Origin: Candidatus Freyarchaeum deiterrae
Lineage (GTDB): Archaea; Asgardarchaeota; Jordiarchaeia; Jordiarchaeales; Jordiarchaeaceae
DNA length: 64,000 nucleotides
Assembly: GCA_037305845.1 (NCBI GenBank)
Contig: CP147778.1
Location: forward strand, 2,336,001-2,400,000
Direction: 5' to 3'
In this document: piece after piece, positions 1 to 2,361 of the stretch
How positions within the stretch are numbered: position 1 is the stretch's first letter
Layout of the letters: every line of letters begins with the position of its first letter
Notes under the pieces: model-generated
Told to the model about the DNA's origin: nothing
Database searches by the model: none
What the model saw: the letters and a program-made list of their open reading frames with translations, nothing else
Program-made: the position numbers and the translations under genes

Positions 1-941
1 CCGCTTCCGGCACAGTACAGTTAAAAGCTTATGATTCCGCAGGATCAATACCAGCTTGGATTAGTGGTGACAGTGTCATAATAACCCCCCACTACCCAGT
101 TCCGCCAAATGGAACTTACGCCTATTATGTGATCTACTCCATTCCAATTGACTTTTCACAAGTGGGCAGCTCCGGTTCATACCTGTTTGCGTTCAACATT
201 CTGCCCAGTTACGGAGCATTAATTGACAACTTTTACGTATCGCTAACATTCAACAACTTCGCGAGCATATCATCACAGAGCCCCCCGACAATCTCTATAT
301 CCTCCTCAATTGCTGAGAACACTTATCTTTACTCTTTTAACAATGTCCTTCCCACCCAAAACGTGGAAGCCTACGCTACATACAGTATTGGTTTGCCAAC
401 AACATACCTCCGTCCACTCGTCTTCATGTTAATCTTCGGATCTATAGCAATAGCCTATGTAGTTATCAGATCACGCCGCGTAGAAGAAGCTGCGCCCATC
501 ATAGTAAGCCCTGCAGAAGTTGTGGCTCCCGTTCTTCGCGAATTCTGCGACCTGTACGAAGAAAAGAACTCACTAATACTCGAAATGGACAGTTTACGCG
601 AGGATGTTCTTAGAAAAAAGATTAGAAAAATAGAATACAATCAGAGAGCCAGAAACTCTGAAAAAGAGATATCCAGACTTAGCATACAGATAGACCAGAA
701 AAAAACAGAAGTGCTAAAATCAAACAATAAATTCGAGTCGGATTTCAGTTTCTTGGAAATAAACGAGGCTGACCGAGACCATGCCAAAATAACGCTCCAG
801 CACCTTAAACGAAGATACTTTATGAAACGCTTATCCAAAGAAACATACATCAAACTCAGCGAGGAACAAGAAAAGAAACTCAACAAGGCAGAATCCAACA
901 TAGACAAGAAAATTCAAGACCTACGCAGAGAAGCAAGCTAA
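1..941 (+). CDS. Ribophorin I (OST1)-like membrane protein, 5' truncated by window edge
   Basis: Frame is open from position 3 (ASGTVQLKAYDSAGSIPAW...ITPHYPVPPNGTYAYYVIYSIP), resembling ribophorin I YxDxxGxI and PR(F/Y)PL..GW...Y.LP motifs; single TM (LVFMLIFGSIAIAYVVI) then a cytoplasmic coiled-coil tail. Confidence 0.65.
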   Translation, partial: ASGTVQLKAYDSAGSIPAWISGDSVIITPHYPVPPNGTYAYYVIYSIPIDFSQVGSSGSYLFAFNILPSYGALIDNFYVSLTFNNFASISSQSPPTISISSSIAENTYLYSFNNVLPTQNVEAYATYSIGLPTTYLRPLVFMLIFGSIAIAYVVIRSRRVEEAAPIIVSPAEVVAPVLREFCDLYEEKNSLILEMDSLREDVLRKKIRKIEYNQRARNSEKEISRLSIQIDQKKTEVLKSNNKFESDFSFLEINEADRDHAKITLQHLKRRYFMKRLSKETYIKLSEEQEKKLNKAESNIDKKIQDLRREAS

Positions 942-1183: not shown

Positions 1184-1289
1184 TGGTAGCGCCGCGCAGA
1201 TTCGAATTCCGCGGCCACACAAAAGCTGTAGCTACTCTGCGGTCTCGGGGTCCAAAGCCCCATATGCTTGTCCTCTACACCACGGCGCT
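1184..1289 (-). tRNA. tRNA-Gln(UUG) with encoded CCA and a 30-nt non-canonical intron at 53/54 (intron 1207..1236)
   Basis: Reverse complement AGCGCCG-TGGTGTAGAGGACAAGCAT-A-TGGGG-CTTTGGA-CCCCG-AGAC-CGCAG[intron]TTCGAAT-CTGCG-CGGCGCT-ACCA; removing 30 nt gives a 76-nt cloverleaf; BHB with central helix CCGC/GCGG and bulges AG|A and AA|T. Confidence 0.93.
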
Positions 1290-1399: not shown

Positions 1400-1613
1400 C
1401 TAATCTTCTTCTATGGAGATAGCTCCCGCCTCACACTGTATCTCACATGCCCTGCAAACCAAGCACTCTTCTTCGGCCGCCGCCTTTGCTAAACCATCCT
1501 TAAGCTTGTAAACCGCAGCGGGGCAAATTTTTACGCGGTCAGACTATGTCTTGTACCTTTACGCATACCCCGCAGCCAGTGCATTTGTTCTTATCCACTC
1601 TAATTTTCACCAT
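1400..1613 (-). CDS. 2[4Fe-4S] ferredoxin (61 aa after splicing; exons 1613..1559 and 1530..1400), interrupted by a 28-nt putative BHB intron; alternatively a pseudogene
   Basis: GAGGTG SD then ATG; joined product MVKIRVDKNKCTGCGVCVKICPAAVYKLKDGLAKAAAEEECLVCRACEIQCEAGAISIEED has two intact CxxCxxCxxxC motifs; the unspliced frame stops at TGA after 24 codons. Confidence 0.85.
1531..1558 (-). other. Putative BHB-type mRNA intron (28 nt)
   Basis: GCGT-AA|A-GGTACAAGACATAGTCTGACC-GCGT-AA|A: central helix GCGU/GCGU (GU, CG, GC, UG), two AAA bulges, inner hairpin GGU/ACC plus AGAC/GUCU, exon-exon helix GCGGGGUA/UGCCCCGC. Confidence 0.75.
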
Positions 1614-1749
1614 TTTCTGGGCACCTCATTAATTTGTTGGCTCAACAAGTGGAGACTATAAGTGATTCTTTTGTACTAATTATTTATTTTCTTAATAGGG
1701 CTGAAATTCTCATAAAAAAGAGAATTAGGGCATTCAACTATTTTTTTTC

Positions 1750-2361
1750 CTACTTTAAGTTGAAAGGCTTTCCCTCGTTTAATACCTTTTTGGGAATTTT
1801 ATCCTTCCACTTCTCCAGAAAGGCTTTGTCATCCTTAGCCTCACGAAGATCGTCGGGTAACATGTGGGGAATTGTTTCTATTACTGGGTACCATCTGCCG
1901 CACTTGTCACAGAGTATTACTCCCTCCTCAACTTCGGCTCTGTACAACAGCCAGTTTAACAGGTGTATATCCAAGTTGAGTTCAGGAGTGAGACTAGAAG
2001 GGAGCTTACCCTTTTTTATTTCCAGAGCGCTTTTTATCAACTGTACTGACGGGGCATCGCTTAAATCCTCAATTGTCATTAATATGTCCAATTTTTCGGA
2101 GAATGTTTCCAGATATTCTTGGAGGGGGACTGGTTCCCTAGTCATTTCATCCTCAATCTTAACTGTGGACCCTGATTGATCTGTTTTAATCCTGTCCTTC
2201 AACTCCTTTTTTAGGAAGTTCGAGTCTTTCTTTTTGAGATCCTCATTGACTTTCTGGAAGTCCTCCTTTTTTGTTTCCCATGTGAAAATTTTGAGCTTTA
2301 GAGGATAATTTTTACAACCACTTATCGGGCAAGCTAAGATATCTAACAACCAAAGCTTCAT
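1750..2361 (-). CDS. trm112: Trm112-like methyltransferase activator (long form)
   Basis: MKLWLLDILACP...YPLKL N-terminus and EGVILCDKCGRWYPVIETIPHMLPD C-terminus flanking a helical insert. Confidence 0.85.
   Translation of the reverse strand: MKLWLLDILACPISGCKNYPLKLKIFTWETKKEDFQKVNEDLKKKDSNFLKKELKDRIKTDQSGSTVKIEDEMTREPVPLQEYLETFSEKLDILMTIEDLSDAPSVQLIKSALEIKKGKLPSSLTPELNLDIHLLNWLLYRAEVEEGVILCDKCGRWYPVIETIPHMLPDDLREAKDDKAFLEKWKDKIPKKVLNEGKPFNLK

What the first reader, a model, noticed from the sequence alone, without database searches (positions are those of the whole stretch)
1400..1613. Ferredoxin mRNA interrupted by a BHB (tRNA-type) intron: candidate protein-coding gene splicing in an Asgard-like archaeon
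Seen: a 2[4Fe-4S] ferredoxin with an SD site and all eight Cys is broken inside its first CxxCxxCxxxCP motif by 28 nt containing an in-frame TGA. The insert folds as GCGU-AA|A-[GGU..AGAC-AUA-GUCU..ACC]-GCGU-AA|A: a 4-bp central helix, two 3-nt A bulges on opposite strands, an inner hairpin directly abutting the motif, and an 8-bp exon-exon helix GCGGGGUA/UGCCCCGC. The outer helix next to the bulge is loose (relaxed BHB/BHL type). Cutting after the second bulge nucleotide, the canonical EndA position, restores TGC GTA AAA ATT TGC CCC (CVKICP). The flanking 7-nt direct repeat means any 28-nt excision within it gives the same product, so frame restoration alone does not prove the cut sites. Known: EndA-spliced mRNA introns in archaea are established mainly for crenarchaeal cbf5. 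Inference: this lineage may splice other mRNAs, possibly as a regulatory switch (compare eukaryotic HAC1/XBP1 non-spliceosomal splicing). Gene callers would systematically miss such genes.
Basis: partly seen in the sequence, partly recalled or inferred. Interest (0 to 1): 0.93.

Follow-up and report, generated by a model that had tools for sequence, protein, structure and literature searches.

The report
tRNA-type intron in Asgard ferredoxin gene
A small iron-sulfur protein gene of an Asgard archaeon is broken by a 28-base insert that is almost certainly cut out of the message by the cell's tRNA-splicing enzyme, and about 14 other protein genes of the same genome carry similar inserts, although published work documents such splicing in the coding region of only one archaeal gene.

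Summary
Observation confirmed. A 2[4Fe-4S] ferredoxin gene (1613-1400, minus strand) carries a 28-nt insert (1558-1531) with an in-frame TGA. It folds as a relaxed bulge-helix-loop motif (z -4.2). Six other assemblies of the genus (Jordarchaeum/Freyarchaeum) have a 28- or 29-nt insert at the same site. Both exons are under purifying selection (dN/dS 0.04-0.28), and every change in the 18 pairs keeps pairing. The 7-nt repeat is not conserved. In relatives the canonical EndA register gives one shared residue (CVEICP); shifted registers do not. Syntenic orthologs in other Asgard families lack the insert. The genome encodes two EndA paralogues; the catalytic one has the loop that allows relaxed motifs. 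A genome-wide scan found frame-restoring 27-36-nt motifs 12 times against 2 and 0 in shifted controls, including cbf5 at the crenarchaeal position. Pseudogene, assembly error, bypassing and selenocysteine are rejected. Nothing supports a regulatory switch. This scan has already noted such mRNA introns in other genes of this genome and in other archaea. In print I found only cbf5 and one 5' UTR case.

The parts
1622..1627 (-). Shine-Dalgarno-like GAGGTG, 8 nt before the ATG
   Evidence: Sequence; GAGG kept in all relatives
1559..1613 (-). Ferredoxin exon 1 (55 nt; C11, C14, C17)
   Evidence: Pfam Fer4 and Fer4_6 above cut-off; dN/dS 0.02-0.23 in unsaturated divergent pairs, but 1.2 against L016 on only 1 synonymous change
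1566..1573 (-). 5' arm of the 8-bp exon-exon helix (GCGGGGUA)
   Evidence: the two synonymous changes seen are C-G to U-G and A-U to G-U
1561..1564 (-). Central 4-bp helix, exon strand (GCGU)
   Evidence: Invariant in 7 assemblies
1558..1560 (-). 5' 3-nt bulge (AAA; AGA in relatives); predicted cut between 1559 and 1558
   Evidence: Unpaired probability 1.0; cut position inferred from the EndA rule (PMC2738675)
1531..1558 (-). 28-nt intron (29 nt in G003, G004, G005, L017), with in-frame TGA at 1541-1539
1537..1557 (-). Intron hairpin (GG/CC closing pairs, inner AGAC/GUCU stem; AGGC/GCCU in the 29-nt form)
   Evidence: One compensatory A-U to G-C change
1533..1536 (-). Central 4-bp helix, intron strand (GCGU; GCGC in G002 and L016)
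   Evidence: G-U to G-C change keeps the pair
1526..1532 (-). 3' loop of the relaxed (BHL) motif; predicted cut between 1531 and 1530
1400..1530 (-). Ferredoxin exon 2 (131 nt with stop; C21, C41, C44, C47, C51)
   Evidence: Pfam Fer4_9, weak; dN/dS 0.06-0.20
1518..1525 (-). 3' arm of the exon-exon helix (UGCCCCGC)
   Evidence: Invariant in 7 assemblies; partly by construction, as the search pattern contained it
1184..1289 (-). Neighbouring tRNA-Gln(UUG) with its own 30-nt BHB-type intron at 53/54 (1236-1207; bulges AGA and AAU)
   Evidence: Rfam RF00005, 35 bits; missed by ARAGORN; removal restores the T-arm; conserved in relatives
1750..2361 (-). Upstream Trm112-like gene (synteny marker within the genus)
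   Evidence: PF03966
3..941 (+). 3' part of a 589-aa membrane protein gene (synteny marker across Asgard families)
   Evidence: tblastn E 1e-20 to 1e-35 with the neighbour of the intronless orthologs

Best explanation
The insert is a tRNA-type intron in the ferredoxin pre-mRNA, removed constitutively by the cell's tRNA-splicing machinery. Shown from sequence: the transcript can fold into intron hairpin, 3-nt bulge, 4-bp helix, 7-nt loop and 8-bp exon-exon helix, and removing 28 nt yields an intact 61-aa 2[4Fe-4S] ferredoxin. Inferred: the two-subunit EndA, whose catalytic subunit has the loop that permits relaxed motifs, cuts after the second nucleotide at each site (1559|1558 and 1531|1530); the exon-exon helix holds the halves together; RtcB joins them. 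Unspliced message gives a 24-aa dead-end peptide with three of the eight Cys. The intron was probably gained in the Jordarchaeum/Freyarchaeum lineage. It is one of about 15 such mRNA introns in this genome, tolerated because a permissive EndA already serves tRNA genes that are nearly all interrupted. The 7-nt direct repeat is a by-product of a self-complementary central helix plus A-rich bulges.
For: Same-site insert of 28 or 29 nt in six other assemblies, four distinct sequences in all. Whole-gene dN/dS 0.04-0.28 at dS 0.4 to above 1.5, with all eight Cys kept. 72 of 72 cells paired; three one-sided changes and one compensatory change, all pair-preserving; slid controls 23-50%. Registers 0 to +2 give CVEICP in all relatives, whereas registers -1 and below give VQ, VK, AQ or AK depending on genome, and +3 changes I to V. 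Intronless syntenic orthologs in three genomes of family f13 and one of f28. Two EndA paralogues; one aligns without gaps to the A. pernix catalytic subunit across the Crenarchaea-specific loop, with K44 and the catalytic His kept (role of the loop in PMC3241643); the other lacks that His. Genome scan: 27-36-nt motifs restore the frame 12 times against 2 and 0 in shifted phases, with no excess at 37-76 nt. Predicted cuts give contiguous Pfam positions: NadE 136|138, PCMT 59|61, AIRS 48|49, TsaD 61|64. The scan recovered cbf5 cut at G|AT of the catalytic Asp, the site known to be spliced in Crenarchaeota.
Against: No spliced RNA, cDNA, peptide or cleavage was seen. No spliced junction among JGI metagenome records (mostly DNA, so weak) and no spliced protein in the protein collection. 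The 3' site is a loop, and the cleavable conformer is about 3 kcal/mol above the minimum-energy fold. Covariation rests on four distinct sequences and does not beat the shuffle control (134 of 500). A looser scan lost most of the phase signal.
Confidence: 0.9

Rival explanations
1. The intron is spliced as described, but splicing is a regulated gate on ferredoxin (and other) expression, as with HAC1/XBP1.
For: Unspliced message is non-productive. 9 of 10 frame-shifting mRNA introns have a stop in the read frame within the intron (shuffle expectation 4.7, P about 0.003; other frames 6 and 5 of 10, so only suggestive). The cleavable fold is not the most stable one.
Against: The host genes have no common function (Alba, PorA, NadE, Kae1, Pcm, HypD, DsrH, aconitase family, aminoacyl-tRNA synthetase, ferredoxin). 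Size and bulge letters match the neighbouring tRNA intron. No sensor or dedicated nuclease was identified. In-intron stops are equally explained by selection against long junk peptides.
Confidence: 0.1
2. Translational bypassing or frameshifting: the ribosome hops from the GUA codon before the insert to the GUA in the repeated 7-mer, or shifts frame inside the insert.
For: In this genome the repeat offers a matched take-off and landing codon and a hairpin between them.
Against: The landing triplet is GCA in G002 and L016, so the match is lost. The insert is 28 nt in some genomes and 29 in others, needing different shifts. The insert's peptide is not conserved. What is conserved is the bulge-helix geometry. 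TGA is TAA in relatives, which also excludes selenocysteine.
Confidence: 0.03
3. Decaying pseudogene: a 21-nt insertion scar with a 7-bp target duplication.
For: Perfect GCGTAAA repeat in this genome; the genome has many other ferredoxins.
Against: Purifying selection on both exons across deep synonymous divergence, no further lesions in seven assemblies, SD kept, and the repeat is imperfect in every relative while pairing is kept. No second copy of the insert in the genome (best 4 mismatches of 21).
Confidence: 0.03
4. Assembly artefact.
For: None specific; the genome is a metagenome assembly.
Against: Seven independent assemblies carry an insert at this site.
Confidence: 0.005

Closest known systems
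cbf5 pre-mRNA intron of Crenarchaeota (Desulfurococcales, Sulfolobales; Watanabe 2002, Yoshinari 2006, Yokobori 2009 PMC2738675)
   Same: Short (16-44 nt there, 28-29 here), no ORF, relaxed BHB motif, cut after the second bulge nucleotide, placed in a functionally essential motif, hetero-oligomeric EndA present. This genome also has the cbf5 intron at the same Asp codon.
   Different: Different gene family (electron carrier, not an RNA-modifying enzyme), different phylum, apparently genus-restricted, and one of about 15 in a genome rather than a single case. Splicing is shown experimentally for cbf5, not here.
Non-canonical tRNA introns of Freyarchaeia and Atabeyarchaeia (PMC11291895; bioRxiv 10.64898/2026.10.13.758758)
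   Same: Same lineage, same size class, same bulge letters as the tRNA-Gln intron 270 nt downstream, lineage-specific gain, no shared sequence family.
   Different: Host is an mRNA. My term searches of both papers found no mention of protein-coding introns.
Haloferax volcanii HVO_1309 5' UTR intron (PMC7714728)
   Same: EndA-cleaved BHB intron in an mRNA.
   Different: 46 nt, in the untranslated leader, does not break a reading frame.
HAC1/XBP1 non-spliceosomal splicing (own knowledge; review PMC13149111)
   Same: Short frame-shifting intron, endonuclease cut, tRNA ligase join.
   Different: Cut by Ire1 at two stem-loops and stress-regulated; no such nuclease, geometry or regulation is shown here.

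Membership tests
Archaeal BHB/BHL (EndA-type) intron | 4-bp central helix between the two splice sites | tested here: met
   GCGU/GCGU, GCGU/GCGC in relatives; pair probability 0.97-0.99
Archaeal BHB/BHL (EndA-type) intron | 3-nt bulge at the 5' site with abutting intron helix | tested here: met
   AAA or AGA unpaired, GG/CC closing pairs invariant
Strict BHB motif | 3-nt bulge at the 3' site with abutting exon helix | tested here: not met
   1x7 internal loop (or 6-nt bulge); this is the relaxed BHL form
Archaeal BHB/BHL (EndA-type) intron | Cuts after the second nucleotide of each bulge or loop restore the mature product | tested here: met
   61-aa ferredoxin in all 7 assemblies; relatives narrow the register to 0 to +2
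Archaeal BHB/BHL (EndA-type) intron | Host encodes an EndA type able to cut relaxed motifs | tested here: met
   Two paralogues; catalytic one with the Crenarchaea-specific loop and K44 equivalent. Sequence evidence only
Archaeal BHB/BHL (EndA-type) intron | Host encodes the RNA ligase RtcB | tested here: inconclusive
   An rtcB-like gene near genome position 1,452,850 is itself split by a 29-nt insert whose removal restores the LPDAHQGYGFPIGG motif; not scanned against a family model
Archaeal BHB/BHL (EndA-type) intron | Spliced RNA or cleavage by EndA demonstrated | not testable with these tools
2[4Fe-4S] bacterial-type ferredoxin | Two CxxCxxCxxxC motifs in about 60 aa | tested here: met
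   After splicing only; Pfam Fer4 hits on the exons and on the intronless ortholog
Programmed translational bypassing (T4 gene 60 type) | Matched take-off and landing codons, stop directly after take-off | tested here: not met
   Landing triplet GCA in G002 and L016; the stop is 2 to 7 codons after the GUA codon
Mobile mini-element with target duplication | Conserved direct repeat and further copies in the genome | tested here: not met
   Repeat imperfect in all relatives; no second copy
HAC1/XBP1-type regulated splicing | Condition-dependent splicing by a dedicated sensor nuclease | not testable with these tools
   Needs RNA from several conditions

The most novel reading that the evidence does not exclude
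Asgard archaea of the Jordarchaeum/Freyarchaeum lineage run a genome-wide, non-spliceosomal mRNA splicing system with EndA and RtcB (that much I put at about 0.85), and use it as a condition-dependent gate on gene expression, a prokaryotic counterpart of HAC1/XBP1 splicing in close relatives of eukaryotes. The probability given is for the full claim including regulation.
Probability: 0.1. Interest if true: 0.95.

Novelty: new variant of a known kind. Interest (0 to 1): 0.76.

Why it matters
In print, splicing inside an archaeal coding sequence rests on one gene, cbf5; introns in other protein genes were only predicted (PMC2738675; PMC7714728). A conserved, genus-specific intron in a ferredoxin, among about 15 in one Asgard genome, means mRNA splicing is probably routine in this lineage and that introns are still being gained in protein genes without a spliceosome. 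It gives a small, defined substrate (57 nt) for testing EndA and RtcB on mRNA. It also bears on annotation: core genes such as porA, nadE, kae1, hypD and this ferredoxin will be called broken, truncated or missing in these genomes. It does not show any link to spliceosomal introns, whose chemistry is different.

Tried and rejected
A pattern that matches both spliced and unspliced junctions found only unspliced forms in JGI metagenomes and in the archaeal genome records; the one short-gap hit was an unrelated bacterium. The genome scan pooled over all insert lengths showed no phase excess; the signal appeared only at 27-36 nt, a size class chosen after seeing the data, so the Pfam contiguity is the independent check. 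A looser scan was mostly noise. The strict scan missed rtcB and mis-phased ychF and one other locus, so 15 is a lower bound. A candidate at window 56681 is an ordinary overlap between an AAA-ATPase-like and a vWA-like gene. The candidate at genome 3,226,960 was not supported by Pfam. My look near the reported mvhD intron was off target and did not test it. No clear ortholog was found in the sister family f2 (five genomes, 73-95% complete); G001's contig ends just before the gene. Invariant third codon positions are no more frequent in the paired region (5 of 9) than elsewhere (15 of 32). A fuzzy-regex search timed out and was redone. No structure prediction was run, as the fold of the product is not in question.

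Full report
Source. The window lies in a single-contig genome of 3,576,204 nt. Same-genus relatives that share the locus are named Ca. Jordarchaeum madagascariense and Ca. Jordarchaeia RPF2 and QZM_A3. The size matches the complete 3.58-Mbp Freyarchaeum deiteterre genome of PMC11291895, in which 92-95% of tRNA genes carry introns. That identification is my inference from size and kinship.

Observation. On the minus strand an ATG at 1613, preceded by GAGGTG, opens a ferredoxin that reads to C17-V18 and then runs into a TGA after 24 aa; the remainder lies in another frame. Removing 28 nt restores a 61-aa protein with two CxxCxxCxxxC motifs. The junction region folds at -22.2 kcal/mol, z -4.2. 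The elements are an intron hairpin, a 3-nt bulge, a 4-bp helix and an 8-bp exon-exon helix. The 3' site is a 1x7 loop rather than a 3-nt bulge, about 3 kcal/mol above the minimum-energy fold. The motif is therefore of the relaxed BHL type.

Relatives. Four same-genus genomes and two metagenome contigs have an insert at the same site, next to the same Trm112-like gene: 28 nt in G002 and L016, 29 nt in G003, G004, G005 and L017. This excludes an assembly error. Both exons are under purifying selection (whole gene dN/dS 0.04-0.28), all eight Cys are kept, and there are no other lesions. This excludes a decaying pseudogene. Across the four distinct sequences all 18 pairs remain paired, with three one-sided changes and one compensatory change; with so few sequences this does not beat the shuffle control. 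The loss of the matched GUA codon in G002 and L016, the two insert lengths, and TAA in place of TGA argue against bypassing, frameshifting and selenocysteine.

Intronless orthologs. Among 251 Asgard genomes the best matches outside the genus are three genomes of family f13 (two are single-contig 2.8-Mb genomes, probably Atabeyarchaeia; inference) and one of f28. They encode uninterrupted 62-aa ferredoxins next to a homologue of the membrane protein that flanks the gene here. Gain in the Jordarchaeum/Freyarchaeum lineage is the simplest reading; no tree was built. The insert has no second copy in the genome, so its source is unknown.

Machinery. The genome has two EndA paralogues. One matches the A. 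pernix catalytic subunit best (E 8.6e-43) and aligns without gaps across the Crenarchaea-specific loop, keeping K44 and the catalytic His. That loop confers cleavage of BHL motifs (PMC3241643). The other lacks the His, as expected of a structural subunit. An rtcB-like gene is present and appears to carry its own 29-nt insert.

Other mRNA introns. I scanned both strands for strict motifs whose removal joins two open frames, with shifted excisions as control. For 27-36-nt inserts the counts were 12 in phase against 2 and 0; longer inserts showed no excess. The size class was picked after seeing the data, so I checked the hits independently with Pfam. Where both exons hit one model the positions are contiguous at the predicted cut (NadE, Pcm, AIRS family, Kae1), or nearly so (NADH:flavin oxidoreductase). 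For Alba, PorA, HypD, DsrH, Cbf5 and a Tyr/Trp-tRNA synthetase, exon 2 starts inside the model. The HD-domain and aconitase-family cases rest on restored motifs. With rtcB and ychF this gives about 15 genes, a lower bound. [quoted passage not shown] A tRNA-Gln gene 110 nt downstream of the ferredoxin stop has a 30-nt intron with the same bulge letters.

Mechanism. Shown: the structure can form, it is conserved, and excision is needed for a functional protein that selection maintains. Inferred: EndA cuts at 1559|1558 and 1531|1530, the exon-exon helix splints the halves, RtcB ligates. I put this at 0.9. Regulation is not supported: the host genes are unrelated in function and the introns look like the tRNA introns. 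The frequent in-frame stops inside the introns (9 of 10) are suggestive only and fit quality control as well as gating.

What is known. Splicing in an archaeal coding sequence is published for cbf5; a 5' UTR intron is published for Haloferax; others were only predicted. Five literature searches, and the two papers on tRNA introns of this lineage, gave no report of Asgard mRNA introns; the library lacks most subscription journals. Earlier notes of this scan report the same kind of intron in other genes of this genome and in other archaea, one with RNA support. I confirmed several of the same-genome cases myself and did not check the RNA claim.

Verdict. A real, conserved, lineage-specific tRNA-type intron in a ferredoxin mRNA, part of a genome-wide set. 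New variant of a known kind; interest 0.76.

Noticed in passing
window 1184-1289, minus strand: tRNA-Gln(UUG) with a 30-nt intron at position 53/54 in the T-arm (1236-1207), missed by ARAGORN and by the whole-window Rfam scan; conserved in G005 and L016.
   Followed up: yes
G000 genome, 1,483,452 minus; L068-L072: cbf5 has an insert at the catalytic Asp codon, the crenarchaeal position, in G000 and in all five other Asgard genomes checked (three families). In G021 it is 36 nt and in frame without a stop.
   Followed up: partly
G000 genome: 987059+, 1125563+, 1619881+, 1873172-, 2458214+, 2494674+, 2579998+, 2636196-, 3108463-: 28-34-nt BHB-type inserts in an HD-domain protein, Alba, NadE, a Tyr/Trp-tRNA synthetase, an AIRS-family protein, an NADH:flavin oxidoreductase, HypD, an aconitase-family protein and DsrH. 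Not checked in relatives.
   Followed up: partly
G000 genome, 2,434,726 minus: Very stable 33-34-nt hairpin insert splitting a gene at VIPGY-GYKAKE; the motif register is off by one from the canonical rule, and the protein was not identified.
   Followed up: no
G000 mRNA introns as a set: 9 of 10 frame-shifting introns hold a stop codon in the read frame; in the ferredoxin the stop is kept as TGA or TAA and re-arises at a different place in the 29-nt form.
   Followed up: partly
G000 genome, about 0.99-2.64 Mb: Nearly all well-supported mRNA introns, and the tRNA genes found, lie in the middle part of the chromosome; may only reflect where core genes lie.
   Followed up: no
window 3-941 against L040-L042, L048: The ferredoxin is convergent with the membrane protein gene here but follows it on the same strand in the intronless orthologs, so the gene was inverted in one lineage.
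   Followed up: partly
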